From a virus, in IMG/VR virus record IMGVR_UViG_3300013901_000001: a stretch of DNA of 64,000 nucleotides, one strand, 5' to 3'. A model generated the notes under the pieces. The model was not told the DNA's origin and made no database searches. It worked only from the letters and a program-made list of their open reading frames with translations. Each line of letters begins with the position of its first letter. Within the stretch, counting starts at the first letter, position 1. The translations under genes and the position numbers were made by a program. This document shows, piece by piece, positions 3,893 through 57,835 of this stretch.

Positions 3893-4120
3893 ATGAGAGT
3901 TATAAGTCAGGACGGAACACTTGATATTCCATATGAAGGTCATATATTCGGTGCAAGCACGGAAGAAAATTGCATAATAGCGGTACATTTTAAAAACCCT
4001 AGCCCATGTATGGATTGGTATTCTACGCAAGAAAAAGCACTTAAGGCTCTTAAAATGTTGCGCGAAGCGCGTAAAAACGGATGCGTAGTATTTCAGTTTT
4101 CAAAGGAAGATGAGGTGTGA
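3893..4120 (+). CDS. hypothetical protein
   Basis: AAAGGAG 7 nt upstream of ATG 3893. Confidence 0.5.
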   Translation: MRVISQDGTLDIPYEGHIFGASTEENCIIAVHFKNPSPCMDWYSTQEKALKALKMLREARKNGCVVFQFSKEDEV

Positions 4121-4122
4121 AA

Positions 4123-4479
4123 ATGAAGATTATTGAGGGAAAAGAAAAAGAATACAAGGAATGGTACGACAAAAACAGCGATTCTTATAGCAGAGCGTGT
4201 TTTACATTCGCTGAAAGATGGGCGGGACTTTTGGAAGAAAAAATAGACAACTCTTCCGATTGTCCGATGAAGGTAATTGTCGATAACGCAAAACAATTAA
4301 GTGATGAAGCAAACACAGAAAGAATCACGGGATTTATGTATGGTTGTTCTGTTAATATTCTATCAAGAGTGTGGAAATACGGTGATGAATTAAGAATGTG
4401 GCACAATGGAAAATACAATTATCAGGGCGAAGGAACTGTAAACCCGGCTATTCTTACGGTTGGTGGCAAAGATGATTAA
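4123..4479 (+). CDS. hypothetical protein
   Basis: GAGGTG upstream of ATG 4123; overlaps previous stop. Confidence 0.5.
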   Translation: MKIIEGKEKEYKEWYDKNSDSYSRACFTFAERWAGLLEEKIDNSSDCPMKVIVDNAKQLSDEANTERITGFMYGCSVNILSRVWKYGDELRMWHNGKYNYQGEGTVNPAILTVGGKDD

Positions 4480-5777: not shown

Positions 5778-5789
5778 GGAGTGTGCGAT

Positions 5790-6176: not shown

Positions 6177-6452
6177 GAGGGTGCTTCCGTGAATCAGATG
6201 AACATATTTGATTTAATTAGAAAACCTATACAGATTACAAAGCCGATTCGTCTCATAGAATTATTTGCCGGGTATGGAAGCCAATCAATGGCATTGAAAA
6301 GAATTGGTGCAAACTTTGAGCATTATAGGGTTGTGGAATTTGATAAGTTTGCCATTGCAAGCTATAACGCAGTGCACGGAACAAATTTTCAAGCATTGGA
6401 CATTACAAAAATTCATGCAAATGATTTGAACATCTGTGATACAGAATCATTC

Positions 6453-6474
6453 ACTTACTTACTTACTTACTTAC
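6453..6474 (+). repeat. tetranucleotide repeat (ACTT)5+AC inside the methyltransferase, just before motif IV
   Basis: Read directly; removing one unit gives ...SFTYLLTYSFPCTDLS... in one frame. Confidence 0.95.
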
Positions 6475-6950
6475 TCGTTTCCTTGCACAGATCTTTCCGT
6501 AGCTGGGAAACGAGCCGGAATGAGTAAAGAAAGTGGAACAAGATCTGGACTTCTGTGGGAAGTGGAAAGAATACTTACTGAAATCAAAGAAGAAAAAGAA
6601 GAACTTCCACAGATTTTATTTATGGAGAATGTACCACAAGTGCATAGTTCGGATAATATGCCGGATTTTAGAAAATGGATAGATTTTCTTGAAAGCCTTG
6701 GTTACAAAAATTATTATCAGGACCTTAACGCAAAAAATTATGGAGTGGCGCAAAACCGTGAACGATGTTTTATGTTTTCGTTTCTTGGAGAATATAATTA
6801 CCATTTTCCACAGCCGTTTCCTCTTGAAAAGAAGTTAAAGGATTATTTGGAAGATAATGTTGATGAAAAGTATTACATCAATAATGAAAAATCCAAAAAG
6901 TTGATAAAGCAGCTTATTGACAACGGAACACTTCCTCAACACAATCTTGA

Positions 6951-7005
6951 GAGCAGAGCAGAGCAGAGCAGAGCAGAGCAGAGCAGAGCAGAGCAGAGCA
7001 GAGCA
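6951..7005 (+). repeat. pentanucleotide repeat (GAGCA)11 inside the methyltransferase
   Basis: Read directly; encodes (EQSRA)n in all three frames, so there is no stop in any frame. Confidence 0.95.
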
Positions 7006-7294
7006 AACTTGCGTTGACGGAACAATCTGCAATCCACAAAGAAGAAAGATTGCGAACTGTATCATGGCAAGAGACTACGGAATCTCAACACAGTCACAGA
7101 CAGGAAACCTTGTTGTTAAAAGGAATGTCAAGTAATAAATACGATCCATATGCAGAAAAAGCAGATATTTCAAGAACCATATGCGCTAGGGATTATAAGG
7201 GCTTAAATAATTTTGGACAGAATGGAGTAATTGAATGGAAATCATAGGAAGTATATACACGGGAGTTTCAGACGGATATCAGCACGGAATCTTA

Positions 7295-7304
7295 GGGGGG
7301 GGGG
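7295..7304 (+). repeat. G10 homopolymer at a frame break in the methyltransferase
   Basis: G9 would join ...HGILGGG to ISRCVKAENHDLGVV. Confidence 0.9.
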
Positions 7305-7418
7305 ATTTCCCGTTGTGTCAAAGCTGAAAATCATGATTTAGGAGTAGTTATGGCAGATGTGAATGTTTTAGGTAGTCTTGAATCGAAATTTGAGAGTACC
7401 AGTAGAATTTATGGAGTA

Positions 7419-7427
7419 GGGGGGGGG
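7419..7427 (+). repeat. G9 homopolymer at a frame break in the methyltransferase
   Basis: G10 would join ...SRIYGVGGG to VSPTLSTMQGGNQ. Confidence 0.9.
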
Positions 7428-7989
7428 TGAGTCCTACGTTAAGCACAATGCAAGGTGGTAATCAAAAACCGAAAATACTTGAAGTAAAACAGCTAGGATT
7501 TATGGAAAACGGAACTGGAAAACATCAGTCCAATACTGTATACGATGAAAACTCATTATCCCCTAGCATAACAACGGTTGAAAATGGTGGTACGCAACAG
7601 ATTAAAATATGCGAAAGCCAAATAGTTGCCATGCGTGGAAGAAATCCAGATAATCCGTCCGACAGAACTGCAGGAAGTCCAACGGAACAAAGACTTGAAT
7701 TAAATAAACATGAAACAAGTAATTGCATTACAAGTGTTCAAAAAGACAATATGGTTATGGAAAATCCCACATATCGCATAAGAAAACTTACCCCGAGAGA
7801 ATGCGGTAGACTTATGGATGTATCAGACGAAGATATTTCCAAAATGGAAAAGGTAAATAGCAACACGCAGCTATACAAACAGTTTGGAAATTCTATTGTA
7901 GTAGGTGTTATGTGCGAGATGTTTAAAAATTTAAACATAAATCAATAAGACCGGACAGTTCCGGTTTGCATAGTTTGGAGGAAAAGAAA

Positions 7990-8556
7990 ATGAAAGTAAA
8001 AAGAACAGTAACAATGAAAGTTAGCCATTTTGGGGTTGGAGACCAGATTACCGTAAAACTTCCAGAATACGGAAAGTTTACGGCTATGGCACATGAGATC
8101 ACGGACAAAGGAACATTATTTATCTTCGATGATTGTGTTTGCGAAAGATGGATGAACAAAGAAAATACGAATGAAGGTGGATATTTGGAATCTGACCTTA
8201 GAAAGTTTGTAACACAGGAGTTGCTAAAGGCATTTCCAGATAAACTGCTTGTAAGGATGGTAAAGGACGATAACGGAGATCTACTTTCCATTCCGACTTA
8301 CGGACAGGTTTTGGGTAAAGACTGGGACGATGAGTGGGATGAGAAAAACATTGAGATCGACAAGAGAGAACAATTGCCACTGATGCAGAAAAGAAAGAAC
8401 CGGATTGCAGATTTACAAAACGAATGGACATGGTACTGGTTGCAAAATAAAGTCCGGTCGTCGTCTCACTTCGCTCGCGTCGATGGCGATGGCCGTGCGG
8501 CCAACTACGGCGCGTCTGGCTCCGGCGGGGTTCGTCCGGCTTTCCTAATCAAGTAA
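7990..8556 (+). CDS. DGR target protein 1 (C-type-lectin-like variable C-terminus)
   Basis: GGAGG then ATG 7990; ends ...WYWLQNKVRSSSHFARVDGDGRAANYGASGSGGVRPAFLIK; 3' end matches the TR. Confidence 0.85.
   Translation: MKVKRTVTMKVSHFGVGDQITVKLPEYGKFTAMAHEITDKGTLFIFDDCVCERWMNKENTNEGGYLESDLRKFVTQELLKAFPDKLLVRMVKDDNGDLLSIPTYGQVLGKDWDDEWDEKNIEIDKREQLPLMQKRKNRIADLQNEWTWYWLQNKVRSSSHFARVDGDGRAANYGASGSGGVRPAFLIK
8453..8538 (+). repeat. DGR variable repeat VR1
   Basis: Gap-free match to TR 56391-56476; 17 of 18 differences are at TR adenines. Confidence 0.85.
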
Positions 8557-8564
8557 TCATTAAT

Positions 8565-8585
8565 CCGCGCCCCTTGTGGGCGTGG
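8565..8585 (+). promoter_or_regulatory. GC-rich hairpin downstream of VR1 (DGR homing-associated type)
   Basis: CCGCGCCC-CTTGT-GGGCGTGG, 8 bp including one G-T pair, 27 nt after the VR. Confidence 0.7.
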
Positions 8586-8621
8586 AAATGGAAGTAAATT
8601 GAAGATTAATGGAGGTAAACC

Positions 8622-8930
8622 ATGAAATATTTAATTGAATTAGAGCCAATCAAAGGAACAAACCTTTATAAGGCGAAGGGATTTAACACACTGGTTTTTG
8701 ATGAATACGGATTGCAACAGCTTACACCGGTTGAAGAGTTTCATAGGATTCCGGTAGTCGGAGATACCATAAGAACAGAAAACGGAACCACCCTTTATGA
8801 ATTTAGAGGTTACGACGAAAACGGAAGAACCAATGCGGTAAATATAACAAATGGATCGTATGTGAATTTGAGAAGCGACCATATCATCGTTGTAGACGAT
8901 AAAACTAATCCGGAAAAAATAGAGTGCTAA
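8622..8930 (+). CDS. hypothetical protein
   Basis: GGAGG upstream; 102 aa. Confidence 0.5.
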   Translation: MKYLIELEPIKGTNLYKAKGFNTLVFDEYGLQQLTPVEEFHRIPVVGDTIRTENGTTLYEFRGYDENGRTNAVNITNGSYVNLRSDHIIVVDDKTNPEKIEC

Positions 8931-8946
8931 AGGAGAACGATGCAGA

Positions 8947-9531
8947 TTGAGTTATCAAGATATAAGAAAGCAAAAGGCGATAGAGCAGAAGAACCGGAAA
9001 CGCCTGTTGGAAGTTAACGGGAGCCTTGATGATAGTAGCGGAATTTACTTTTTGACACGCACGGACGAAAACGGCATTAAATACGCCTACATCGGACAGG
9101 CAAAGCACATTCTCACAAGGCTTGCACAGCACCTTGTCGGTTATCAGCATATCGACCTCTCGTTGAAGTCTCATGGTTTGTATTCTGTTGATAATATTTA
9201 CGGTTGGAAGATTGGGTTTCTGCATTTTCCGTTAGAAAAACTGGACGAAAAAGAACAATATTACATAAGGCAGTATGCAGTGAATGGTTATCAGCTTCGG
9301 AACAAAACCGGTGGCGGTCAAGGAAAAGGGAAAGAGAAGATTGACGAATATCGACCGGCGAAAAGCTATTATGACGGCTTAAAACAGGGCAGAAAGAACC
9401 TTGCGAGGGAATTGTCCTGTATCATTGAAAAACACCTTGTTATTTCTTTGAAAGCGGAGAAACAGGGAAATAAGGTTTCACAGAAGCAGTACGAAAAGTT
9501 TATGGATTTGCTAAAGGTTGGTGATGAATGA
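8947..9531 (+). CDS. GIY-YIG domain nuclease
   Basis: GIYFLTRTDENGIKYAYIGQA... then YYIRQY and NGYQLRN. Confidence 0.65.
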   Translation: MSYQDIRKQKAIEQKNRKRLLEVNGSLDDSSGIYFLTRTDENGIKYAYIGQAKHILTRLAQHLVGYQHIDLSLKSHGLYSVDNIYGWKIGFLHFPLEKLDEKEQYYIRQYAVNGYQLRNKTGGGQGKGKEKIDEYRPAKSYYDGLKQGRKNLARELSCIIEKHLVISLKAEKQGNKVSQKQYEKFMDLLKVGDE

Positions 9532-9706
9532 CATGGAAGAGATCAAAGACGAAAGAGAGTATTGCGAATGGGAAGAGGTTTATACACCGAAAACACTTCC
9601 GTTTTTCAATACTTCATGTGGAAAAATTAGATTAAATTATTCCACAGGTTATGATATTTACTGCAATGCTTGCGGAAAGAAAATCAAGTTGATTAAGAAA
9701 AAATAA
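9524..9706 (+). CDS. small zinc-ribbon protein
   Basis: C..C...CNACGKK pattern; overlaps upstream stop. Confidence 0.4.
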   Translation: MNDMEEIKDEREYCEWEEVYTPKTLPFFNTSCGKIRLNYSTGYDIYCNACGKKIKLIKKK

Positions 9707-9758
9707 AGAAAGGAATAAGGTTGTGCGCACATAAAACCATGGTTTCCTTTCAAGAGAA

Positions 9759-11135
9759 ATGGATTACGAAGAGTTTTTAAAGAATAAAAGATTTGTTTTA
9801 GAAAGTAGTGGATTCGATATTGATAAATCCCAATTAAATCCGATGCTATACGACTTTCAGAAAGACATAGTTCGGTGGGCATTGAAGAAAGGAAAAGCCT
9901 GTATATTTGCAGATTGCGGACTTGGGAAAACACCTATGCAGTTATCGTGGGCGCATCAAGTTCACATGCATACTGGTGGGGATGTTCTTATTCTTACACC
10001 ATTAGCTGTTGCCGAACAGACAAAGCGAGAGGCTGAAAAATTCGGATATGATGCAAAAGTAGTTGATAAACAGGATGATTGCATCAACGGAATAAATATA
10101 ACGAACTATGAAAAGCTGGACAGGTTTGCTGCGAATCATTTTTCCGGAATTGTTCTTGATGAGAGCAGTATTTTGAAATCTTACAGTGGAAAAGTAAGAA
10201 CTGCCATTATTCAGAATTTCCATGAAGTTCCTTACAAATTAGCTTGCACAGCTACTCCAGCACCAAACGATTATATGGAATTGGGGAATCATTCGGAATT
10301 TTGTGGAGTGATGACAAGACCAGAAATGCTATCAATGTTCTTTGTGCATGATGGTGGAGAAACATCGAAATGGAGATTGAAAGGTCATGCAGAGGATGTG
10401 TTCTGGCAGTGGCTATCTACATTTAGCGTATTTGTTGATAATCCGAACAATATCGGATACGAGATTGATGGATATAATCTACCAGAACTTAAAATAAAAG
10501 AAATAATTGTGGATGGGGATACGACAACAACAGAGAACTTGACATTAACAGAACGGAGACAAGCGAGAAAGGATAGCTTGCAAAAAAGATGCGAATGTGC
10601 ATCAGAACTTGTAAATAATTCTAATGAGCAATGGCTTGTATGGTGTGACTTGAATGATGAAAGCCATAAGCTGCATGAATTAATCGAAGAAAGCGTTGAA
10701 GTTGAGGGAAGTGATAAAGAACAACACAAGTCTTCAGCCATGCTTGATTTTAGCAATGGGAATATAAAGTGTCTTGTTACAAAACCTAAAATTGCCGGAT
10801 TTGGGATGAATTGGCAGAACTGTCATAACATGATTTTTACCGGACTTTCGGATAGTTATGAGCAGTATTATCAGGCTCTCCGCAGATGTTGGAGATTTGG
10901 CCAGAGTGAACAGGTGAATGTTTATATTATCATTTCATCAAAAGAAGGATGCGTGAAAGAAAACATTGAAAGAAAGCAGAAAGACTTTGCAAAAATGCAG
11001 AAAGAAATGACAGAACTCACAAAGGAAATAACAAAAAAAGAACTAAGGAGTACGTGTAGGATTTCCACACCATATGAACCGCAAATACATCTAACTTTAC
11101 CGATGTGGGATGAATTTAAGAAAGGAAATGAATAG
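9759..11135 (+). CDS. SNF2/DEAD-like superfamily 2 helicase
   Basis: GLGKT Walker A, DESS box, TATPAPN, QALRRCWRFGQ motif VI. Confidence 0.85.
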   Translation: MDYEEFLKNKRFVLESSGFDIDKSQLNPMLYDFQKDIVRWALKKGKACIFADCGLGKTPMQLSWAHQVHMHTGGDVLILTPLAVAEQTKREAEKFGYDAKVVDKQDDCINGINITNYEKLDRFAANHFSGIVLDESSILKSYSGKVRTAIIQNFHEVPYKLACTATPAPNDYMELGNHSEFCGVMTRPEMLSMFFVHDGGETSKWRLKGHAEDVFWQWLSTFSVFVDNPNNIGYEIDGYNLPELKIKEIIVDGDTTTTENLTLTERRQARKDSLQKRCECASELVNNSNEQWLVWCDLNDESHKLHELIEESVEVEGSDKEQHKSSAMLDFSNGNIKCLVTKPKIAGFGMNWQNCHNMIFTGLSDSYEQYYQALRRCWRFGQSEQVNVYIIISSKEGCVKENIERKQKDFAKMQKEMTELTKEITKKELRSTCRISTPYEPQIHLTLPMWDEFKKGNE

Positions 11136-11136
11136 A

Positions 11137-12063
11137 ATGGACGTTTTAGCACAGACAATAGAAAAGAATTATGCAATTTACAATGGAGATAGTTGCGAAC
11201 TGATTAAGGCAATTCCGAATAATAGCATTCATTACACTATTTTTAGTCCACCATTTGCAAGCCTATATACTTACTCCAACAGTGATAGGGATATGGGAAA
11301 CAGCAAGGGAGATGATGAATTTTACGAACACTTTAAATTCCTAGCAACAGAACTTTATAGGGTAACGATGCCTGGACGATTGCTTTCGTTTCACTGCATG
11401 GATTTACCACTAATGAAAGAAAGGGATGGCGTGATCGGATTAAAAGATTTCCCGGCACTTGTAAGACAGATTTTTGAAGATTGCGGTTTTATTTATCATA
11501 GTAAGGTGACGATTTGGAAAAATCCGGTCACAGAAATGCAGAGAACTAAGGCACATGGGCTTCTTCACAAGCAAATAAGGAAAGACAGTACAATGAACAG
11601 GCAAGGAATCCCAGATTACATTGTTACGATGCGGAAACCGGGCGAGAATCCAGAGAGAGTATCGCATACACATGAAACATTTCCTGTTGATGTGTGGCAG
11701 AATTACGCAAGTCCTGTATGGATGGATATTCGGCAGTCTGATACATTGCAAAAGAAGTCTGCAAGGGAAAACAAGGATGAGCGTCATATCTGTCCGTTAC
11801 AATTAGAAGTAATTCAAAGATGCATTGAATTATGGACGAATAAAAATGACATAGTTTTAGATCCGTTTGCCGGAATTGGCAGCAGCCCATACGTTGCTGT
11901 TACGATGGGGAGACGTGGCATAGGATTTGAACTTAAAGAAAGCTACTATAAACAGGCTGTTGCAAACCTTGAAGCAGCAGTAAGTTTTAATAAGATGGAT
12001 TGCCCGGTAGGTCAAATGTCAATTGAGGATTTTTTAGGGGAGAATGTCTTGCAGTGCAGTTAA
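11137..12063 (+). CDS. DNA methyltransferase, N6-adenine/N4-cytosine class
   Basis: SPPF catalytic motif near the N-terminus and DPFAGIGSS AdoMet motif near the C-terminus. Confidence 0.85.
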   Translation: MDVLAQTIEKNYAIYNGDSCELIKAIPNNSIHYTIFSPPFASLYTYSNSDRDMGNSKGDDEFYEHFKFLATELYRVTMPGRLLSFHCMDLPLMKERDGVIGLKDFPALVRQIFEDCGFIYHSKVTIWKNPVTEMQRTKAHGLLHKQIRKDSTMNRQGIPDYIVTMRKPGENPERVSHTHETFPVDVWQNYASPVWMDIRQSDTLQKKSARENKDERHICPLQLEVIQRCIELWTNKNDIVLDPFAGIGSSPYVAVTMGRRGIGFELKESYYKQAVANLEAAVSFNKMDCPVGQMSIEDFLGENVLQCS

Positions 12064-12133
12064 CCATATTCGATTATGAATAAAAATATTCTGATTGGAA
12101 TAAAAAAATTCATGGAACTTGAAAGGAGTAAAA

Positions 12134-12697
12134 ATGCCAAAACATTATGATGATCCACAGGAAATTGCAAGAATGATGTTGGAATTGAAGCGTTTACGGC
12201 AGACGGCGCAGAGAAGTCCGTTTACAGGATTGCTTACCATTTTCTGCTATGTCTTGTGGAAAGATTACAAATACAGTCAGACGAAACTTGCGAAATTCTG
12301 CGAGGACTTTTCAAAGTACGATGCAGAATATGACGGACAGAATATTTCCAAACTTGATAACGGGTTATGGGATTATGCCGATTGGAAAGTGGAATTTACG
12401 CCGTATACTGAAAAGGATTATCCGTTTTACAAGTCCCCTATGGCACAGAAAGTAGTACGGGAACAGGTGAAAGCCAACAACGAAATTAATGAGAAAGCGA
12501 CGAGGTATTTAACCTACGGATTTACGGTTTTGATGAATGACGGAACGAAGAAACAGAAGTTGACAAACATCAAAGATAAAATCCAGAAGCGCATTGATGA
12601 AGTGACCGCCGATGAAAGAGACAAGTGCATCATGGATTTGTGGAAAGAGTTGGTTGACGAAGCCGGAATTTACATTGAGAAACCGGTGATCGATTAA
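12134..12697 (+). CDS. hypothetical protein
   Basis: AAAGGAG then ATG 12134. Confidence 0.5.
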   Translation: MPKHYDDPQEIARMMLELKRLRQTAQRSPFTGLLTIFCYVLWKDYKYSQTKLAKFCEDFSKYDAEYDGQNISKLDNGLWDYADWKVEFTPYTEKDYPFYKSPMAQKVVREQVKANNEINEKATRYLTYGFTVLMNDGTKKQKLTNIKDKIQKRIDEVTADERDKCIMDLWKELVDEAGIYIEKPVID

Positions 12698-12716
12698 AGG
12701 AAAGGAGTTGTTATGA

Positions 12717-13412
12717 GTGAAAGGAAAACGAACGTTTGACATAAAGCTTGTTAGTTCCGACGCTTTTCTTAATATGCCGATATCTGCACAATGTTTATTC
12801 TTCCACCTTTGCATCAGGGCAGACGATGAAGGATTTGTTGACCGTGTAAAAAGCATTATAAAACAGTGCGGTGCTACGGATGAAGATTTGGAAGTGTTGA
12901 AGAAAAAGAGATACGTTCTTACATTTCCAGAATCGAATGTCATCGTGATTAAACACTGGAAACTTCACAATCTGATTGACAAGGACGAGTTTGAACCTAC
13001 GGTATATGCCGAGGAAAAGTCAAAACTGTACGAAAAAGAGAACGGTGCTTATACCTTTGATTCACGCAAGGCTGAAAAGTTGAGTGAAAAATTGAGTATC
13101 TGTGAACGGAAAACTCAATTAGATACTGTAAAAGAAGTGATTTCCTATTTAAACGAGAAATGCGGTACGAAATACCGTTACTCCACGCTTGCTAATCAGA
13201 GAGGAATCGTTGCAAGGCTTAATGAGGGAAATTACACCGTTGAAGATTTTAAGGCAGTGATTGATAAAAAGGTGGCTGATTGGGGCAATAACCCTACAAT
13301 GTGCACCTATTTACGACCGGAAACTTTGTTCGGAAACAAGTTTGAAAGCTATCTTAATCAGTTATCTTCTTCCGGAAAAACTGAATTTGACGAATGGGGT
13401 GATTGCCGTTGA
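12717..13412 (+). CDS. phage replisome organiser-like protein
   Basis: N-terminal SDAFLNMPISAQCLFFHLCIRADDEGFV and C-terminal VISYLNEKCGTKYR...ETLFGNKFESYLNQ pattern; GTG start after AGGAG. Confidence 0.6.
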   Translation: MKGKRTFDIKLVSSDAFLNMPISAQCLFFHLCIRADDEGFVDRVKSIIKQCGATDEDLEVLKKKRYVLTFPESNVIVIKHWKLHNLIDKDEFEPTVYAEEKSKLYEKENGAYTFDSRKAEKLSEKLSICERKTQLDTVKEVISYLNEKCGTKYRYSTLANQRGIVARLNEGNYTVEDFKAVIDKKVADWGNNPTMCTYLRPETLFGNKFESYLNQLSSSGKTEFDEWGDCR

Positions 13413-14035
13413 CACGTGATGAAACAATAGAAATTTTGATGATGGTTCAAGCAGCTTACCCGAATTTTAACGTACCGGACAAAAAAGTCACGGTCAACAC
13501 ATGGTTTCTCTTCTTTGAGAATTACTCGGTTGATGTGATTAAGGGAGCATTAATGGCATACATCACAAGTGATAAGAACGGATTCGCTCCGGCAATCGGA
13601 CAGATTATCGAAATTGCAGAGTCCATGACAAACGCACAGGAACTTGACAGTATGGCGGCGTGGTCTCTTGTCAGTAAGGCATTGCGAAATGGATATTATC
13701 ACGCAAGGGAAGAGTTTGAAAAACTGCCGAAACTGGTACAACAAGCGGTCGGAAGTCCGGACAATCTTCGAAATTGGAGTACATCGGATTATAGTGCGAT
13801 TGAAACCGTGATTCAAAGTAACTTCTTACGGTCTTACCGGATATGCGTTGAACGTGATAAGAAGATGCGTTGTATGCCGGAACAAATCAGAAACCAGATC
13901 GAAAACAATATACCTGTTTTTCATCTTCCGGAATCAGAACCGAAACCGATGATTGAGCAAAATAAAACGGACGGAATTTCAGAAAAAACGGAAAAGTTGC
14001 TGGAAGAGTTTAAAAGAAAGGAAATGATGAATTGA
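13403..14035 (+). CDS. putative replication accessory / helicase-loader-like protein
   Basis: Position after the replisome organiser; weak resemblance only. Confidence 0.35.
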   Translation: MPLTRDETIEILMMVQAAYPNFNVPDKKVTVNTWFLFFENYSVDVIKGALMAYITSDKNGFAPAIGQIIEIAESMTNAQELDSMAAWSLVSKALRNGYYHAREEFEKLPKLVQQAVGSPDNLRNWSTSDYSAIETVIQSNFLRSYRICVERDKKMRCMPEQIRNQIENNIPVFHLPESEPKPMIEQNKTDGISEKTEKLLEEFKRKEMMN

Positions 14036-14442
14036 TGAAAGATTATTGTATTTTCCACGAACGAATGAAAAGCAGAATGAATCTTTGTTGTATGACCGGA
14101 AGAGAACTTTCCGAAAAGACGGGAATAACAGAAGTTTCAATAAGCAGATATTTAACAGGGCAAAGAGTTCCAAAAGCGACAGAAATAATAAAAATTGCAA
14201 ATGCTTTGAATTGCTCTTGTGATTATCTTTTAGGAAAAAATCCGAAGAAAAATTTATCCGTCAAAGAAGCTATCAATATTCTTGAATTAAATAGACCTTT
14301 TGAAGAAAATGAACTTCAAAATGCGCTTGATATTGCGATCGAATCGTTAAAAATGCAAATAAAAATGGAAAAAGAATGTTCTGCTTATGATGAGTGCCGC
14401 AAGTGTAATATTTGCCTTAGCGATTTCATTATAGAAAAGTAA
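14035..14442 (+). CDS. XRE-family HTH protein
   Basis: LSEKTGITEVSISRYLTGQRVPKATEIIKIANALNCSCDYLLG. Confidence 0.7.
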   Translation: MKDYCIFHERMKSRMNLCCMTGRELSEKTGITEVSISRYLTGQRVPKATEIIKIANALNCSCDYLLGKNPKKNLSVKEAINILELNRPFEENELQNALDIAIESLKMQIKMEKECSAYDECRKCNICLSDFIIEK

Positions 14443-14484
14443 ATGAACGGAAATATGAATATCCGGTATTGAGAAAGGATCTTT

Positions 14485-14688
14485 ATGAAGCAAACATTTA
14501 TAGTAGGAATCGAAACTAATCACAAAAGTTTTAATTCTTGGATTGCGGAACATGACAAGACAGTAAGAGAGAAAGCACTCGATGATGCGATTCTTTATTT
14601 TGAAAAGCACGCACACGAGATATACGATCATGTGAGTGCAAGAGATTTTATTTGTGACAGGTTGGAAGAACTGAAAAACAAAAAATAA
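14485..14688 (+). CDS. hypothetical protein
   Basis: 67-aa ORF in the same-strand operon. Confidence 0.45.
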   Translation: MKQTFIVGIETNHKSFNSWIAEHDKTVREKALDDAILYFEKHAHEIYDHVSARDFICDRLEELKNKK

Positions 14689-14705
14689 AAATGGAGGGTT
14701 TTAAA

Positions 14706-15275
14706 ATGAAAGCATGGAGAAAAGTAAAAATGGAGATCAAAAACTATAAGGTCGGAGATCAGATCGCGGTGAAACTCAAAGGTTTTGGGAAATTTACGGC
14801 TACGGCGCAGAGAGTTTATGACGATGGAAAAACGCTGTTTCTTTTCGATAACTGCGTTGCAGAACGGCATATGAACGAAAACGGTTCAAATTCCGGAGGT
14901 TTTTATGAATCCGACTTATGCAAGTGGATGAATACAAAATTGGTGAAAACTTTTCCTGCTAAACTTCTTGACCGCATGATTTATACGGACGAAGAGCATG
15001 AATGTCTGCTTCGAATTCCGACAAGAAAGGAAATGTTCGGAGAGAATGAATATAGCGAAAATTACGAACCTGATTTAGACAAACAGCTTGAACTTATGAA
15101 AGACAGAAAAAATCGTGTATGCTCACTTCCTGATGATGAATATGCATGGTATTGGTTGATGAACGCGAATATCCGGTCGTCGTCTGGCTTCGCTTGTGTC
15201 CCTAGCCGTGGCACTGCGCTCACCGGCGACGCGTCTGCCTCCCTCGGGGTTCGTCCGGCTTTCCTAATCAAGTAA
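14706..15275 (+). CDS. DGR target protein 2, paralogue of target 1
   Basis: GGAGG then ATG 14706; VGDQIAVKL...GGFYESDL...WYWLMNANIRSSSGFACVPSRGTALTGDASASLGVRPAFLIK. Confidence 0.85.
   Translation: MKAWRKVKMEIKNYKVGDQIAVKLKGFGKFTATAQRVYDDGKTLFLFDNCVAERHMNENGSNSGGFYESDLCKWMNTKLVKTFPAKLLDRMIYTDEEHECLLRIPTRKEMFGENEYSENYEPDLDKQLELMKDRKNRVCSLPDDEYAWYWLMNANIRSSSGFACVPSRGTALTGDASASLGVRPAFLIK
15170..15257 (+). repeat. DGR variable repeat VR2
   Basis: 88-nt gap-free match to the TR; all 19 differences are at TR adenines. Confidence 0.9.
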
Positions 15276-15283
15276 TCATTAAT

Positions 15284-15304
15284 CCGCGCCCCTTGTGGGC
15301 GTGG
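15284..15304 (+). promoter_or_regulatory. GC-rich hairpin downstream of VR2
   Basis: Identical to the VR1 hairpin; the ~70 nt after both stops are identical. Confidence 0.7.
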
Positions 15305-15341
15305 AAATGGAAGTAAAATTAAAATTTCGGAGGTAAAGTAG

Positions 15342-15929
15342 ATGGCACGATATAGAGCAAAATCATGTGAAATTGAAGCAATTCAATGGACTGATAATAC
15401 AAATGAAATAAAATCATTTTGTGGAAATAGTTGCACATATTCCGTAGAAGAACAGTGCATGGGAAGTTGGAAAGGCATTCCGATCGAGAGATTGGTTATT
15501 CACACATTGGAAGGAGATATGGTTGTAAGCAGAAACGACTACATCATAAAAGGATTGAAAGGTGAATTTTATCCATGCAAGCCAGATGTATTTAACCAAA
15601 AGTATAAATTAATAAATGATACTATGGAAATACAAGAAGAGCAGAGATGGATACCGGTAACTGAAAGGCTGCCGGAAGAACTTACACCAGTAAATATTAC
15701 GTGGATAAATAGAAATCCTGAACAATATTATGCGGATATAAAGGATGTTCCTTTTTCCGCTACAGGAGTTTTTCATCGCGGAAAGTGGTATTGGTGGTCG
15801 GTAGTAGTTGTTGATTATCTTTCGGAATATGGAAGATATGACATGGATTTAGTAGATAAAGATATTGAAATTGTAGCATGGCAACCATTACCGGATCCCT
15901 ACAAAGGAGAAAATAACCACAATATGTAG
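15342..15929 (+). CDS. DUF551-like domain protein
   Basis: C-terminal WIPVTERLPEE...VAWQPLPDPY pattern. Confidence 0.55.
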   Translation: MARYRAKSCEIEAIQWTDNTNEIKSFCGNSCTYSVEEQCMGSWKGIPIERLVIHTLEGDMVVSRNDYIIKGLKGEFYPCKPDVFNQKYKLINDTMEIQEEQRWIPVTERLPEELTPVNITWINRNPEQYYADIKDVPFSATGVFHRGKWYWWSVVVVDYLSEYGRYDMDLVDKDIEIVAWQPLPDPYKGENNHNM

Positions 15930-15956
15930 CAATCCCGGATCGCAAGATTTGGTATG
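15914..15956. repeat. 43-bp repeat, copy 1 (imperfect palindrome; candidate recombinase or regulator site)
   Basis: TAACCACAATATGTAGCAATCCCGGATCGCAAGATTTGGTATG; 40/43 identical to 28374-28416, same orientation. Confidence 0.85.
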
Positions 15957-15972
15957 GAAAGAGAGGAAAATA

Positions 15973-16344: not shown

Positions 16345-16345
16345 C

Positions 16346-16489
16346 ATGAGCAAAACATATTATAAACCGCTTACGCCAAAATTAAGAGAAGAAATTAATG
16401 ATGAGATAATTTCCAATATGGCAGAGTTACAAACTTGTCAAAGTAATGTGTTTGTAAACGCGCAGATGATTGGATATGAAGCGTTTTAA
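16346..16489 (+). CDS. small hypothetical protein (47 aa)
   Basis: GTGAGGA then ATG 16346; below the ORF-track cutoff. Confidence 0.35.
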   Translation: MSKTYYKPLTPKLREEINDEIISNMAELQTCQSNVFVNAQMIGYEAF

Positions 16490-54948: not shown

Positions 54949-55788
54949 ATGGCAATTAATAAAGTGGAATATAGCGGAAATACATTAATTGACTTGACTT
55001 CTGACAGCGTAACACCGGAATCTTTACTTTCCGGCGTTACCGCACATGATGCGTCTGGAAATTTGATTATAGGAGAACTTAATCCGCAAAGAATATTTGA
55101 TAATGCCGGATATCACAACAGTATTTTTCGTGGAAAGAACTTGGGAACGGCTGTTCCGGAAGAACAATACGAAGCTATTTCTTCCGGAGAGTTCACGGAT
55201 TTGTATGTAGGTGATTACTGGACTTTAAACAACGTTGTTTACCGTATTGCCGGATTTGATCTGTTTTTACATACGGGGGATACAGAGTTAACAACGCATC
55301 ATGTTGTTATTGTGCCGGATAAAAATATGTACAGTCACGTGATGAATGATACAAATGTGACCACCGGCGGTTACTACAATAGCAAAATGAAACAAAGTGG
55401 TCTGACACAGGCTCTGACTACGGTAAAGGCGGCATTCGGTGAAAGCCACATAGTAAAAAGAAGAGTAATTTTAACAAATGCCACAAATGGAGATAATCCA
55501 TCCGGATGGGCGTGGTACGATACCTACATTGACCTTATGACAGAACGGCAGGTATATGGATCTCCTGCATGGGGACAGGCGGCACATAATGGATATGATG
55601 CCGGATGTGAGTATTCAAGACTTCCGTTGTTTGCACTTGCACCGGAATTTATCACAAATAGAGAATGGTATTGGCTACGAGATATCCGGTCGTCGTCTGG
55701 CTTCGCTGGTGTCTCTGGCCAGGGCCGTGCGACCGACGCCGACGCGTCTCGCTTCGGCGGGGTTCGTCCGCTTTTTTTAATCTCTTAA
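54949..55788 (+). CDS. DGR target protein 3 (fibre-attachment N-terminus plus variable lectin-like C-terminus)
   Basis: Ends ...EWYWLRDIRSSSGFAGVSGQGRATDADASRFGGVRPLFLIS. Confidence 0.9.
   Translation: MAINKVEYSGNTLIDLTSDSVTPESLLSGVTAHDASGNLIIGELNPQRIFDNAGYHNSIFRGKNLGTAVPEEQYEAISSGEFTDLYVGDYWTLNNVVYRIAGFDLFLHTGDTELTTHHVVIVPDKNMYSHVMNDTNVTTGGYYNSKMKQSGLTQALTTVKAAFGESHIVKRRVILTNATNGDNPSGWAWYDTYIDLMTERQVYGSPAWGQAAHNGYDAGCEYSRLPLFALAPEFITNREWYWLRDIRSSSGFAGVSGQGRATDADASRFGGVRPLFLIS
55683..55770 (+). repeat. DGR variable repeat VR3
   Basis: 88-nt gap-free match to the TR; 19 of 21 differences are at TR adenines. Confidence 0.9.
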
Positions 55789-55798
55789 TCGTCAATCA

Positions 55799-55815
55799 CC
55801 GCCCCATGTGGGCGG
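55799..55815 (+). promoter_or_regulatory. GC-rich hairpin downstream of VR3
   Basis: CCGCCC-CATGT-GGGCGG. Confidence 0.7.
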
Positions 55816-55838
55816 AGTTGACGAAGAAAGGAGCATAT

Positions 55839-56366
55839 ATGTCAGAAATACCAAAGTCAAGAAGAAAAGAATCAAAATTAGAAGTAATTCACAAAGCGTA
55901 TAAATTACGAGCTAGAATAACAAATGAACTAATATGCAGCTTCGGATATTCTCAAAAGAAATATGAAGCACATTTAAACAAAGCGGTAAGACATATTCGG
56001 GACGAAACAGAACGCGAGGAAAAGAAAGAAGTTCTGCGCAAAATGGAAGGAAATTTTGATTTCTGGATTATTGAAAAAGAAAGAGACGATATTCTACATT
56101 ACACAAAAGGAATCGTAAATCATCTTATATCTGCAAACACAATATATCCGGTTAATGTATCGGAATATGAAGAACGCAGATTGGAAATGGATAGAGCGTT
56201 GGTGTGTTGCACGTGTCTTCAACAGGAATTGCAGTACATCGCAGAAGTTCTTCCGTCTGACAAGAATAAGTACATGAACATAGTGCTTGAAATTCAAACG
56301 ATCCGAGAAATGATAAAAGGGCTTCGCCAATCCGACAACAGATTTTTAAGAGATATCAATAAATAA
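55839..56366 (+). CDS. avd: DGR accessory variability determinant (Avd-like)
   Basis: GAAAGGAG then ATG 55839; basic helical 175-aa protein between the target and the TR. Confidence 0.7.
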   Translation: MSEIPKSRRKESKLEVIHKAYKLRARITNELICSFGYSQKKYEAHLNKAVRHIRDETEREEKKEVLRKMEGNFDFWIIEKERDDILHYTKGIVNHLISANTIYPVNVSEYEERRLEMDRALVCCTCLQQELQYIAEVLPSDKNKYMNIVLEIQTIREMIKGLRQSDNRFLRDINK

Positions 56367-56388: not shown

Positions 56389-56476
56389 TATCCAGTCGTC
56401 GTCTAACTTCGCTAATGTCAATAGCAATGGCAATGCGAACAACAACGACGCGTCTAACTCCAACGGGGTTCGTCCG
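56389..56476 (+). repeat. DGR template repeat (TR)
   Basis: Non-coding; 23 adenines, variable codons AAC/AAT; matches VR1-3; ends in GGGGTTCGTCCG. Confidence 0.9.
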
Positions 56477-56611: not shown

Positions 56612-57835
56612 ATGAATCCATTAATAGATGCAAATAGTTTATATGACGCCGGAACATTGGCGATAAAAAGTAGCAGCTTCAAGTACAAAACGCAATTATT
56701 TGAAATGAACCATCTTTTGGAAACTGCATTATTACAGAAAGAATTGCAAGAAGGAACGTACAGACCGGAAAAAGGAACAAAATTTCTGATCCATGAAAGA
56801 GGAAAAATCAGATACATCACAAGCAATACCATGAGAGATAAAACAGTCAATCATGTGTTGTGTGATGAAATCGTCACACCATCCATAGAAAAATATTTGA
56901 TCTATGATAATAGTGCTTCACAGAAAGGCAAGGGGATTTCTTTTGCCAGAAAGAGACTGGAAGAACATTTGCATAGTTATTATAGGAAATACGGGACAAA
57001 TGACGGCTACATCTTGTTGATGGATTTTTCAGGTTATTATGCGAATATTCCACACGATAAATGCAAGGACATTCTGTATAGAATGGTTTTCCGAGACGGA
57101 CTTGAAGAAGAACCGACCAAAGCAGTGATTGAAAATATTTTTAAATCCTACGAAATGGATGTTTCATATATGTCTGATAAAGAAATAAAAGTCTTGTATA
57201 GCACAAAGGTAGATCCTGTAATGAACCAAAACGTTCCGAAAGAATTGCTTACAGAACAAAAGATGCTAAAGAAAGGAGCGGACATAGGAAATCAGCTTGC
57301 TCAAGCAATAGGAATTACTTTTCCTTATAAGATTGATAATTATGTGAAAATCGTAAGAGGATGCAAATTTTACGCCAGATATACGGATGACAGCTATATT
57401 ATTTCGAGCGATAGGGAATTTTTGTTTGATGTTTTGGACGGTATTAAAGAAATTGCGGATGAACATGGAATCATATTGAACAAAAAGAAAACGAGGATAG
57501 TAAAGATTTCCTCGTTTTTCAGATTTATGCAGATAGGATATTCCCTAACTGCCACAGGAAAAGTGATAAAGAAAATAAATCCTAAAAATGTGAGAAGGGA
57601 AAGGGTGAAGCTGAAAAAATATAAAAATTTGTTAGATAATGGAAAAATGACATATGCAGACATAGAAAATTGCTTTAAGTCTTGGATATGTACATACTGG
57701 AAAATTATGTCGCACCAACAATTATACAATATGAACGCCCTGTATAAGGAGCTGTTTGGAAAGGGAATAAAATGGAAAACGAAAAATTCACGATTACATT
57801 GGCTGATGGAACACAAATCACCGGACTTTCGATGA
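56612..57835 (+). CDS. DGR reverse transcriptase
   Basis: RYTDDSYII (YxDD box), IGNQLAQ, finger/palm spacing; directly downstream of the TR. Confidence 0.9.
   Translation: MNPLIDANSLYDAGTLAIKSSSFKYKTQLFEMNHLLETALLQKELQEGTYRPEKGTKFLIHERGKIRYITSNTMRDKTVNHVLCDEIVTPSIEKYLIYDNSASQKGKGISFARKRLEEHLHSYYRKYGTNDGYILLMDFSGYYANIPHDKCKDILYRMVFRDGLEEEPTKAVIENIFKSYEMDVSYMSDKEIKVLYSTKVDPVMNQNVPKELLTEQKMLKKGADIGNQLAQAIGITFPYKIDNYVKIVRGCKFYARYTDDSYIISSDREFLFDVLDGIKEIADEHGIILNKKKTRIVKISSFFRFMQIGYSLTATGKVIKKINPKNVRRERVKLKKYKNLLDNGKMTYADIENCFKSWICTYWKIMSHQQLYNMNALYKELFGKGIKWKTKNSRLHWLMEHKSPDFR

What the first reader, a model, noticed from the sequence alone, without database searches (positions are those of the whole stretch)
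7990..15304. DGR-diversified stand-alone binding domains encoded among early replication and anti-restriction genes
Phage DGR targets are classically receptor-binding tail proteins. Here two of the three targets are ~190-aa proteins consisting only of the ligand-binding fold: VGDQI.VKL...GG(Y/F).ESDL...WYWL...VR. The same fold forms the C-terminal half of fibre protein 54949..55788. These two proteins lack its N-terminal attachment segment and show no signal peptide or TM helix. They sit among RecT, methyltransferases, an SNF2 helicase and replication genes, all on the early strand. One reading is that the phage diversifies intracellular binders, for example against host defence or other host proteins. 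Another is that these are virion-decoration proteins encoded in an odd place. I am not aware that either has been characterised.
Basis: inference. Interest (0 to 1): 0.85.

Follow-up and report, generated by a model that had tools for sequence, protein, structure and literature searches.

The report
Remote DGR targets among early genes
This gut phage uses one mutagenic retroelement to diversify its tail fibre and also two small anchor-less binding proteins encoded among replication and anti-defence genes; this layout has been reported before in related phages, and nobody has yet shown what such proteins do.

Summary
One DGR (Avd-like ORF, TR 56391-56476, RT 56612-57835) has three variable repeats. 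They lie in the fibre gene 54949-55788 and in two small genes, 7990-8556 (188 aa) and 14706-15275 (189 aa). TR/VR mismatches fall almost only on TR adenines (17-19 of 23 A against 0-2 of 63 non-A). Each VR is followed by a stable GC hairpin.

Both small proteins are DUF6273 / C-type-lectin-like modules (AF2 pLDDT 92.7). They are homologous to fibre residues 81-279, lack the fibre's N-terminal anchor, and have no hydrophobic segment. They sit among RecT, Tad4, methyltransferases, an SNF2 helicase and replication initiators.

The layout is not new. Roseburia phage Shimadzu orf43 (diversification shown experimentally), Faecalibacterium phage Toutatis gp24, Acutalibacter phage Fontainebleau and Dulem virus 34 have the same arrangement. 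Benler et al. 2021 proposed a non-structural, conflict-related DGR target in Quimbyvirus.

My survey of 19 non-redundant relatives found replication and early-type annotated neighbours and no true structural family among the families listed.

The function is untested. I favour a non-virion cytoplasmic binder (about 0.45) over a virion or extracellular accessory (about 0.35). I class it as a new member of a known, unexplained kind.

The parts
7990..8556 (+). Small DGR target T1 (188 aa), a stand-alone DUF6273 / C-type-lectin-like protein
   Evidence: Pfam DUF6273 E 1.2e-8, above its cut-off. phrog_21980 E 2.3e-54. GGAGG ribosome-binding site plus ATG. 50% identical to T2.
8453..8538 (+). VR1 core
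   Evidence: 17 of 23 TR adenines are changed against 1 of 63 non-A positions, p = 4e-12.
8565..8585 (+). GC-rich hairpin after VR1 (DGR target-recognition element)
   Evidence: DNA fold -11.3 kcal/mol, z = -4.4. The sequence is identical to the one after VR2.
14706..15275 (+). Small DGR target T2 (189 aa), a stand-alone DUF6273 / C-type-lectin-like protein
   Evidence: Pfam DUF6273 E 2.7e-11. phrog_21980 E 1.1e-45. AF2 pLDDT 92.7. Foldseek hits the DUF6273 N-terminal domain of an IgA peptidase, the Lcl C-terminal domain, C-type lectins, and gut-phage DUF6273 proteins.
15172..15257 (+). VR2 core
   Evidence: 19 of 23 TR adenines are changed against 0 of 63 non-A positions, p = 2e-15. Against the closest relative, L086, all 17 VR differences are at TR-A sites and all are non-synonymous.
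15284..15304 (+). GC-rich hairpin after VR2
   Evidence: DNA fold z = -4.4.
54949..55788 (+). Fibre-type DGR target (279 aa): an N-terminal anchor of about 80 aa followed by the same DUF6273-like module
   Evidence: hhalign of the small-protein family against residues 81-279 gives prob 97.9%, E 4.5e-13. The N-terminus is shared with the neighbouring fibre ORF 54362-54934 (translations).
55685..55770 (+). VR3 core
   Evidence: 19 of 23 TR adenines are changed against 2 of 63 non-A positions, p = 3e-13.
55789..55824 (+). Hairpin after VR3
   Evidence: DNA fold -14.5 kcal/mol, z = -5.3.
55836..56366 (+). Avd-position accessory ORF
   Evidence: Lies between the fibre target and the TR. Weakly similar to Shimadzu Avd (24% identity over 85 aa, E 1e-5). 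No Pfam hit.
56391..56476 (+). Template repeat (TR)
   Evidence: A-rich copy of the repeat (23 A, AAC/AAT codons). It encodes 16 variable codons, about 10^15.5 possible protein variants. No hairpin follows it.
56612..57835 (+). DGR reverse transcriptase
   Evidence: Pfam RVT_1 E 7e-13. Lies directly downstream of the TR.
4117..4479 (+). Context: Tad4 (type I Thoeris inhibitor) homologue in the same early gene array
   Evidence: Pfam PF25186 E 2.2e-31, 108.9 bits against a cut-off of 25.
6189..7948 (+). Context: Dcm-type cytosine methyltransferase region (split reading frames) directly upstream of T1
   Evidence: PHROG DNA methyltransferase hits. Translations carry C5-methyltransferase motifs. 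An (AGAGC)11 repeat lies at 6950-7005.
9759..14035 (+). Context between T1 and T2: SNF2-type helicase, N6/N4 methyltransferase, DnaD-like initiator and helicase loader
   Evidence: PHROG hits with E values from 5e-67 to 1e-46.

Best explanation
**Shown.** T1 and T2 are genuine, currently active remote targets of the phage's single DGR. TR RNA is reverse-transcribed with adenine-specific errors. The cDNA replaces the last ~86 nt of each of three genes, guided by the conserved 3' end of the VR and the hairpin that follows it. This gives up to about 10^15 variants of one surface patch.

The two small proteins consist only of the DUF6273 / C-type-lectin-like ligand-binding module that also forms the distal 70% of the tail-fibre target. 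They belong to a large family (phrog_21980 and its neighbour phrog_9958; more than 400 homologues, nearly all 180-200 aa). In gut Clostridia phages this family is encoded in the early, replication and anti-defence part of the genome, away from the DGR cassette.

**Inferred.** Three features bear on function:
- They lack the fibre's anchor and any export signal.
- They sit inside tightly packed early gene arrays, with no detectable promoter or terminator of their own.
- Their copy number varies between relatives.

From these I think they are most likely made before virion assembly as soluble cytoplasmic proteins. Their hypervariable face would bind a variable host or competitor-phage protein, for example a defence component. 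In that case the phage diversifies an intracellular conflict factor in parallel with its receptor-binding fibre.
For: **Identity and activity.**
- The A-specific TR/VR pattern.
- Hairpins after all three VRs but not after the TR.
- Against the closest relative, L086, divergence is 6.7% outside the VR. Inside the VR there are 17/90 differences, all at TR-A sites and all non-synonymous.
- Scaffold dN/dS is 0.09-0.18.

**Fold.**
- Pfam DUF6273.
- AF2 pLDDT 92.7.
- Foldseek hits to C-type-lectin-like and DUF6273 structures.
- Homology to fibre residues 81-279 without the anchor.

**Location.**
- The window map places T1 and T2 in a RecT - Tad4 - MBL hydrolase - SSB - Dcm - T1 - SNF2 - methyltransferase - DnaD - loader - HTH - T2 array. 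This array is at least 18 kb upstream of the terminase.
- The same position is seen in Shimadzu (between methyltransferases and Erf), Fontainebleau (between Pol I and a helicase), Dulem virus 34 (after an MboIIA-type methyltransferase) and Toutatis gp24 (between methyltransferases and the replication initiator). In each, the VR matches a distant TR.
- In 19 non-redundant IMG/VR loci, the 149 neighbouring genes gave HTH, G39P, PAPS reductase, NrdD, ligase, dUTPase, SNF2, N6_Mtase, SSB and integrase hits. No true structural family appeared among the listed families; the one structural label is explained under evidence against.
- Relatives carry 1 or 2 copies, and one chimeric allele exists.

**Other.**
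- No hydrophobic segment.
- Published precedent for the idea: PMC8008677.
Against: - No expression or localisation data exist for any member of the family.
- Every characterised DUF6273 or DGR C-type-lectin module acts outside the cytoplasm: BPP-1 Mtd, tentaclins, and the secreted IgA peptidase N-terminal domain (PMC10743442, PMC12402451).
- The same TR serves a tail fibre, so the library is tuned for whatever the fibre binds.
- Virion proteins also lack signal peptides, so the absence of one is uninformative.
- The conserved basic N-terminal peptide (M1 and R5 nearly or fully invariant, low pLDDT) could be a docking motif for the virion.
- Read-through could still express the genes late.
- There is no homology to any known anti-defence or defence family.
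- Earlier authors assumed a receptor-binding role for related small targets.
- The neighbour censuses list only the 25 most frequent families, so rare structural neighbours cannot be fully excluded.
- The one structural label among them, Hoc-like phrog_10993 (2 members), appears to come from neighbouring DUF6273 paralogues matching through their VR. Toutatis gp24 shows the same match.
Confidence: 0.45

Rival explanations
1. Virion-associated or extracellular accessory binders. T1 and T2 would be made, or persist, late. They would dock non-covalently on the tail or capsid, perhaps through the conserved N-terminal peptide, or be released at lysis as free lectins. In this reading they add two independently diversified receptor or mucus-binding specificities to that of the fibre.
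For: - They are homologous to the fibre's distal module.
- All characterised relatives of the fold are extracellular binders (PMC10743442; PMC12402451).
- They share one TR with the fibre.
- The invariant N-terminal residues are compatible with a docking motif.
- Published authors favoured a receptor-binding role for DUF6273-only targets (PMC10743442; bioRxiv 10.1101/2024.10.15.618418).
Against: - They were not found next to a structural gene in 5 complete phage genomes, nor among the listed neighbour families of 19 non-redundant loci.
- They lack the ~80-aa anchor that the fibre and its neighbour share.
- They lie at least 18 kb upstream of the late operon. An integrase region and oppositely oriented genes lie in between.
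Confidence: 0.35
2. Prophage- or early-expressed, membrane-proximal sensor for superinfection exclusion or defence. The variable face would recognise incoming competitor-phage components, working with membrane partners.
For: - In the sister clade the small target is flanked by paired DUF6353 / phrog_2152 proteins: 22 of 149 neighbours.
- These proteins have two N-terminal hydrophobic helices (sequences).
- Cellular DGR targets fused to signalling or defence-like domains are known (discussed in PMC8008677).
Against: - No DUF6353 gene was found among the window proteins I scanned.
- PADLOC gives no hit for T1, T2 or DUF6353.
- The genes lie in the lytic early array, not next to the repressor.
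Confidence: 0.1
3. Spare cassettes with no function of their own. They would be duplicated copies of the fibre's VR-bearing module, kept as recombination donors or as by-products of DGR target duplication.
For: - The 3' flanks of VR1 and VR2 are identical.
- A chimeric allele exists, with a T2-type N-terminus on a T1 body, at the T2 locus in relatives.
Against: - Scaffold dN/dS is 0.09-0.18.
- The ORFs are intact with strong ribosome-binding sites.
- More than 400 homologues of conserved length were found.
- The family keeps its position across phages whose fibres are unrelated.
Confidence: 0.05

Closest known systems
Roseburia phage Shimadzu orf43 (VR2 target; Cornuault et al., bioRxiv 10.1101/575076)
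   Same: - Sequence homologue: tblastn 30.6% identity, E 2e-13; phrog_21980.
- About 200 aa, with the VR at the C-terminus and remote from Avd/TR/RT.
- Lies directly after DNA methyltransferases in the replication module.
- A tail-fibre gene next to the RT is the other target.
- Diversification was shown experimentally in that paper.
   Different: - Shimadzu has one small target; this window has two paralogues, making three VRs in all.
- Shimadzu is a myovirus of about 45 kb. This window shows a phage of at least 64 kb, with a 1443-aa ORF (45583-49914) that I take by its size and position to be the tape-measure gene.
- The Shimadzu authors called orf43 'of unknown function' and offered no hypothesis.
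Faecalibacterium phage Toutatis gp24, and the Lelie and CP11 'small' DGR targets
   Same: - DUF6273-only protein (215 aa) in the early region, between methyltransferases and the replication initiator.
- Its VR matches a TR about 17 kb away on the circular map.
- Described as a core gene of unknown function (bioRxiv 10.1101/2024.10.15.618418; PMC11792537).
   Different: - It belongs to a different PHROG, phrog_9958, which T1 hits only weakly.
- The partner target is a Hoc-like tentaclin rather than a fibre.
- The authors suggested a receptor-binding role.
Quimbyvirus second DGR target (Benler et al. 2021, PMC8008677)
   Same: - A C-type-lectin DGR target distal to the structural module.
[quoted passage not shown]
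- It was explicitly proposed to be non-structural and involved in phage-host conflict.
   Different: - It is a Bacteroides phage of another family.
- The gene is on the opposite strand from the structural genes.
- tblastn did not detect it as a homologue.
Bordetella phage BPP-1 Mtd
   Same: A C-type-lectin-type fold with a C-terminal VR, diversified by the Avd/TR/RT mechanism, with an IMH and hairpin after the VR.
   Different: - Mtd is 381 aa, with N-terminal beta-prism and beta-sandwich domains that attach it to the fibre. It is encoded in the cassette and is a proven virion receptor-binding protein (as described in PMC10743442).
- T1 and T2 have none of these domains and are not encoded in the cassette or the tail module. 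Whether they enter the virion was not tested.
- Mtd was not among the 50 Foldseek PDB matches listed.
nd4_tgt2 and nd12_tgt2 (Baykov et al. 2023, PMC10743442)
   Same: Proteins consisting only of a DUF6273 C-type-lectin domain with a C-terminal VR, co-diversified with a second target from one TR.
   Different: - They are encoded inside the DGR cassette, not in the replication module.
- They are longer, at 234 and 294 aa.

Membership tests
DGR variable-repeat target | VR/TR pair whose differences are confined to TR adenines | tested here: met
   17-19 of 23 A positions differ against 0-2 of 63 non-A positions for each of the three VRs; p is 4e-12 or lower.
DGR variable-repeat target | Reverse transcriptase next to the TR | tested here: met
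   RVT_1 E 7e-13 at 56612-57835, 136 nt after the TR. DGR-clade-specific motifs were not examined.
DGR variable-repeat target | VR at the 3' end of the ORF, followed by conserved IMH-like sequence and a GC hairpin that the TR lacks | tested here: met
   Alignment. Hairpin z-scores are -4.4, -4.4 and -5.3, against -0.5 after the TR.
DGR variable-repeat target | Avd accessory protein | tested here: inconclusive
   ORF 55836-56366 is in the expected position and is weakly similar to Shimadzu Avd (E 1e-5). It has no Pfam hit and no significant match to Toutatis Avd.
DGR variable-repeat target | Evidence of ongoing diversification | tested here: met
   Against relative L086, all 17 VR2 differences are at TR-A sites, with 17 non-synonymous and 0 synonymous changes. 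Flanking divergence is 6.7%. Deep sequencing of one population was not possible.
DUF6273 / C-type-lectin-like ligand-binding fold | Pfam PF19789 above its gathering score | tested here: met
   35.5 and 44.1 bits against a cut-off of 23.5.
DUF6273 / C-type-lectin-like ligand-binding fold | Predicted structure matches C-type-lectin-like or DUF6273 structures | tested here: met
   pLDDT 92.7. PDB hits: 9qa6 IgA peptidase (TMq 0.63), 8q4e Lcl C-terminal domain, snaclecs and CD23. BFVD DUF6273 proteins reach TM up to 0.78.
Shimadzu-orf43-type small remote DGR targets (phrog_21980) | Sequence membership, about 180-210 aa, single domain | tested here: met
   phrog_21980 E 2e-54 and 1e-45. 404 homologues, almost all 176-210 aa.
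Shimadzu-orf43-type small remote DGR targets (phrog_21980) | Encoded in the early or replication region, far from Avd/TR/RT | tested here: met
   The VRs lie 48 and 41 kb upstream of the TR in window coordinates, among replication and methyltransferase genes. The same holds in Shimadzu, Fontainebleau and Dulem 34.
Mtd-type virion receptor-binding protein | N-terminal domains that attach the lectin module to the tail fibre | tested here: not met
   The whole protein, from about residue 10 to 189, aligns to fibre residues 81-279. There is no counterpart of the fibre's 80-aa N-terminal segment, and the model shows a single globular unit.
Mtd-type virion receptor-binding protein | Encoded in the tail module or DGR cassette | tested here: not met
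   See the window map.
Mtd-type virion receptor-binding protein | Present in the virion and determines adsorption | not testable with these tools
   Needs virion proteomics and genetics.
Phage anti-defence protein | Homology to a characterised anti-defence family | tested here: not met
   Only DUF6273 in Pfam. No PADLOC hit; note that PADLOC holds defence models, not anti-defence models.
Phage anti-defence protein | Located in an early anti-defence gene neighbourhood | tested here: met
   Tad4 (E 2e-31) and an MBL hydrolase lie upstream, and two methyltransferases are adjacent. Relatives show Tad4, a faint Apyc1 hit and Lar nearby. This is association only.
Phage anti-defence protein | Inhibits a defence system or binds a host protein | not testable with these tools
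   Needs experiments.

The most novel reading that the evidence does not exclude
The small DUF6273 proteins would be a phage-encoded, DGR-programmable repertoire of intracellular binders. They would be made early from the incoming genome, and their hypervariable face would neutralise variable host defence proteins or other cytoplasmic proteins of the host or of competing phages. The phage would then run an antibody-like diversification system against immunity inside the cell, in parallel with receptor switching outside it. Extra paralogues, two in this window, would widen the repertoire.
Probability: 0.3. Interest if true: 0.9.

Novelty: new member of a known kind. Interest (0 to 1): 0.5.

Why it matters
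Phage DGRs are usually explained as host-range switches acting on tail proteins. Roux et al. 2021 (PMC8144416), a large-scale metagenome survey, states that it could not detect remote targets, so this class is under-counted.

This window and its relatives show that a whole family of anchor-less lectin modules is kept under purifying selection, is actively diversified, and is consistently encoded with replication and anti-defence genes. If these proteins act inside the cell, DGRs would also be a counter-defence or host-takeover tool. The proteins would then be natural small programmable binder scaffolds. If they turn out to be virion parts, they would show that structural accessories can be encoded and timed outside the late module.

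Either answer is within reach, because inducible cultured phages (Shimadzu, Fontainebleau, Lelie) carry the same arrangement.

Tried and rejected
- **Close phage relatives.** Megablast of 7000-16000 against GenBank phages gave no match, so the phage has no close sequenced relative there.
- **Host.** The host remains unidentified.
- **Promoters and terminators.** The scan of 5000-19000 found no more sites than shuffled sequence (43 against 39.9; 8 against 9.1). It gives no sign that T1 or T2 has its own promoter or terminator, and it cannot time their expression.
- **Hairpins as terminators.** Rejected. No T-run follows them, and the same element follows the fibre VR.
- **PDB sequence search.** The family profile gave only E 0.15, to the IgA peptidase.
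- **PADLOC.** No hit for T1, T2 or the DUF6353 neighbours.
- **DUF6353 in the window.** No DUF6353 hit among the 20 window proteins scanned. The membrane-partner idea therefore does not transfer directly.
- **Integrase as a foreign insertion.** I first suspected that the integrase at 18500-19747 marked a foreign element between the 43-nt repeats. Relatives keep an integrase, tyrosine or large serine type, at the same place in the same gene order, so it is the phage's own module. The repeats remain unexplained.
- **Methyltransferase specificity subunit.** I considered that the small proteins might be specificity subunits for the adjacent methyltransferases. I rejected this because the association is not general (1 N6_Mtase among 149 neighbours). 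I also know of no C-type-lectin fold that binds DNA (my own knowledge).
- **Literature.** I found no proteomic or transcript-timing data for any family member.

Full report

Yes. A repeat search found a ~92-nt sequence four times: 8451-8542, 15170-15261, 55683-55774 and 56389-56480. The last copy is rich in AAC and AAT codons. It lies 136 nt upstream of a 407-aa reverse transcriptase (RVT_1, E 7e-13). It follows an ORF (55836-56366) that is weakly similar to the Avd of Roseburia phage Shimadzu (E 1e-5) but has no Pfam hit.

In the 86-nt core (TR 56391-56476, 23 adenines), the three other copies differ from the TR as follows:

| VR | A positions changed | Non-A positions changed |
|---|---|---|
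| VR1 | 17 of 23 | 1 of 63 |
| VR2 | 19 of 23 | 0 of 63 |
| VR3 | 19 of 23 | 2 of 63 |

Fisher p ranges from 4e-12 to 2e-15. Each variable repeat closes its ORF. Each is followed by conserved sequence and a GC-rich hairpin (DNA fold z = -4.4, -4.4 and -5.3). The stretch after the TR does not fold (z = -0.5). This is the standard anatomy of a diversity-generating retroelement with three targets. The TR encodes 16 variable codons, about 10^15.5 possible proteins.

**2. The two small targets**

With GGAGG ribosome-binding sites, the genes are 7990-8556 (188 aa, T1) and 14706-15275 (189 aa, T2).

- They are 50% identical to each other.
- Both pass the Pfam gathering score for DUF6273.
- Both match phrog_21980, a PHROG of unknown function, at E 2e-54 and 1e-45.
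- An AlphaFold2 model of T2, built on 31 homologues, is confident (pLDDT 92.7, pTM 0.88).
- Its best PDB matches are the DUF6273 N-terminal domain of the Thomasclavelia ramosa IgA peptidase (9qa6, TMq 0.63), the Legionella Lcl C-terminal domain, and classical C-type lectins.
- Its best viral matches are DUF6273 proteins of human-gut phages, both stand-alone and fused into long fibre-like proteins.
- A profile of the family aligns from about residue 10 to the end with residues 81-279 of the fibre target 54949-55788 (hhalign 97.9%, E 4.5e-13).
- The fibre's first ~80 residues are shared with the neighbouring fibre ORF 54362-54934 (translations). They have no counterpart in T1 or T2.
- Neither protein has a hydrophobic stretch (maximum 19-residue Kyte-Doolittle mean below 0.9).

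The one flaw is 'early strand', which is meaningless because nearly all genes in the window are on the + strand.

**3. Surroundings**

The window reads as a circularly permuted temperate-phage genome. The order of genes is:

- repressor (60160-61119, minus strand) and antirepressor;
- RecT (1327);
- Tad4, a type I Thoeris inhibitor (4117-4479, PF25186, E 2e-31);
- an MBL-fold hydrolase (4460);
- SSB and an HTH protein;
- a Dcm methyltransferase region (6189-7948);
- T1;
- two unknown genes;
- an SNF2-type helicase (9759);
- an N6/N4 methyltransferase (11110);
- a DnaD-like initiator (12717) and a helicase loader (13403);
- an HTH protein;
- T2;
- a DUF551 protein, an invertase and an integrase (18500);
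- accessory genes;
- terminase (35229), portal, capsid and a 1443-aa ORF at 45583-49914 (tape measure by size and position), then fibres (50370-55788);
- the DGR and an endolysin.

T1 and T2 thus lie in a tightly packed early array, at least 18 kb upstream of the late genes. Consensus promoter and terminator scans there are no different from shuffled sequence.

**4. Are the remote repeats active, and are the proteins functional?**

Close relatives from metagenomes (81-87% protein identity) keep the same gene order. Against the closest one, L086, T2 differs at 6.7% of positions outside the VR. Inside the VR it differs at 17 of 90 positions. All 17 are at TR adenines and all 17 are non-synonymous. 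Outside the VR, dN/dS is 0.09-0.18 in five comparisons. The scaffold is therefore under purifying selection while the VR is being rewritten by the DGR. These are working genes, not decayed duplicates.

**5. How general is the arrangement?**

tblastn against GenBank phages found three records. In all three the homologue sits in the replication region, and its 3' end matches a distant TR that also serves a structural target next to the RT:

- Roseburia phage Shimadzu orf43 lies between DNA methyltransferases and Erf.
- The Acutalibacter phage Fontainebleau homologue lies between DNA polymerase I and a helicase.
- The Dulem virus 34 homologue lies directly after an MboIIA-type methyltransferase.

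Faecalibacterium phage Toutatis gp24 is a 215-aa DUF6273 protein of the neighbouring phrog_9958. It lies between methyltransferases and the replication initiator and also matches the distant TR.

A protein search gave 404 homologues with E of 1e-5 or lower. Almost all are 176-210 aa. Their alignment shows an invariant scaffold with variation confined to the VR columns.

I took 80 IMG/VR loci and reduced them to 19 with target identity below 75%. I then scanned the four genes on each side, 149 proteins in all.

- Pfam gave DUF6353 (22 members), HTH families, G39P, PAPS reductase, DUF4406, NrdD, DNA ligase, dUTPase, SNF2, N6_Mtase, SSB and integrase.
- PHROGs gave mainly unknown families, plus regulators, a helicase loader, a helicase, a ligase and an integrase.
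- No terminase, portal, capsid or tail family appeared in either list.
- The two 'Hoc-like' hits most likely come from neighbouring DUF6273 paralogues that match through their VR. I did not inspect those two proteins, but Toutatis gp24 shows the same match.
- Only the 25 most frequent families are listed per search, so rare exceptions cannot be excluded.

Relatives carry one or two small targets. One allele at the T2 locus has a T2-type N-terminus on a T1-type body.

**6. What is already published**

- The Shimadzu paper (bioRxiv 10.1101/575076) reports VR2 in orf43 'of unknown function'. It shows that both VRs are diversified: 2% of virion reads carried 10-15 typical mismatches, and both VRs were mutated in all evolved isolates and in viromes.
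- The Faecalibacterium prophage study (PMC11792537) describes 'large and small' DUF6273 targets in Lelie and CP11. It notes the Shimadzu case and says the function is unclear.
- The hotspot preprint (10.1101/2024.10.15.618418) describes the Toutatisvirus second target as a core gene of unknown function 17.5 kb from the TR, and suggests receptor binding.
- Baykov et al. (PMC10743442) describe DUF6273-only targets inside DGR cassettes and model them as single C-type-lectin domains.
- Benler et al. [quoted passage not shown] - Roux et al. 2021 (PMC8144416) state that their global survey could not detect remote targets.

I found no expression, proteomic or binding data for any member of the family.

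**7. Most likely mechanism**

*Shown.* One DGR rewrites the last ~86 nt of three genes. Two of them encode anchor-less, soluble copies of the fibre's binding module. The family is conserved, selected, and encoded in early, replication and anti-defence neighbourhoods.

*Inferred.* Four points bear on function.

- Gene order in tailed phages tracks timing and function.
- There is no anchor, export signal or structural neighbour.
- A true anti-defence gene and methyltransferases are adjacent.
- Copy number varies, as it does for conflict genes.

From these I favour soluble cytoplasmic binders that are made before assembly and act on a variable host or competitor protein (confidence about 0.45).

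The main rival (about 0.35) is that they act outside the cytoplasm, docked on the virion or released at lysis. Every characterised relative of the fold is an extracellular binder, the same TR serves the fibre, and the family keeps a conserved basic N-terminal peptide that could be a docking motif.

Two minor rivals remain. One is a membrane-proximal exclusion sensor, suggested by the paired two-helix DUF6353 proteins that flank the gene in a sister clade. These proteins are absent from this window and unknown to PADLOC. The other is a functionless spare cassette, which is contradicted by the purifying selection.

**8. Verdict**

This is a new member of a known but unexplained kind of DGR target. 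It is notable for having two paralogues and for a clear Tad4 and methyltransferase context. The family-wide conservation of the early-module position is, as far as I could find, not stated in the literature. It makes the open question of intracellular versus virion action directly testable in cultured phages.

Noticed in passing
window 6189-7948 (repeat at 6950-7005): The Dcm-type cytosine methyltransferase just upstream of T1 is split over several overlapping reading frames. It contains a perfect (AGAGC)x11 pentanucleotide repeat, read as AEQSR repeats. Relatives have an intact 329-aa Dcm (for example L088 928-1917). This could be a phase-variable methyltransferase or a disrupted one.
   Followed up: partly
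window 15914-15956 and 28374-28416: A 43-nt direct repeat (93% identical) brackets 12.46 kb that holds an invertase, the tyrosine integrase, an HNH endonuclease, a DUF5067 membrane protein and an antirepressor. The second copy abuts a tRNA 3'-end fragment on the minus strand (about 28424-28460) that ARAGORN and Rfam do not call. It looks att-like, yet relatives keep the integrase region in the same order, so its meaning is unclear.
   Followed up: partly
window 4117-5176: A clear Tad4 (type I Thoeris inhibitor) homologue (PF25186, E 2e-31) is followed by an overlapping MBL-fold hydrolase. In a relative (L096) the equivalent hydrolase has a faint Anti-Pycsar Apyc1 hit. This looks like an anti-defence pair in the early operon.
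   Followed up: partly
L017 8546-9346 and 10603-11397 (similarly L050, L060, L064 and others): In a sister clade the small DGR target is flanked by paired DUF6353 / phrog_2152 proteins of about 260 aa with two N-terminal hydrophobic helices. They sit together with conserved unknown PHROGs 10740, 4079, 18141 and 15567. This is a conserved cassette of unknown function, and no paper in the library mentions DUF6353.
   Followed up: partly
window 16540-17190 and 32714-33298: There are two serine-type DNA invertase genes (phrog_125). The first lies 1.3 kb downstream of T2. I did not look for invertible segments.
   Followed up: no
window 7990-8040 and 14706-14756 (protein residues 1-17): The family has a conserved basic N-terminal peptide, MK(V/A)xRKVxM, with invariant R5. 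It is predicted to be flexible (pLDDT about 64) and has no counterpart in the fibre. It may be a docking or recognition motif.
   Followed up: no
L095 6328-6894, L096 10001-10567 (protein P0062): An allele at the T2 locus of relatives has a T2-type N-terminus joined to a T1-type body. This suggests recombination between the paralogues. Relatives differ in having one or two small targets.
   Followed up: partly
window 54362-54934 and 54949-55788: Two adjacent fibre ORFs share their first ~45 residues (MA(V/I)NKV.Y...LIDLT.DSVT...G(I/V)TAHD.SG) but have different distal parts, and only the second carries a VR. They may be alternative tips on one anchor.
   Followed up: no
window 18500-19747, compared with L088 9998-11362, L090 15924-17288 and L095 9626-10990: The mid-genome integrase slot holds a tyrosine integrase here and in L086, but a large serine recombinase in other close relatives. 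The integration module has been swapped within one phage lineage.
   Followed up: partly
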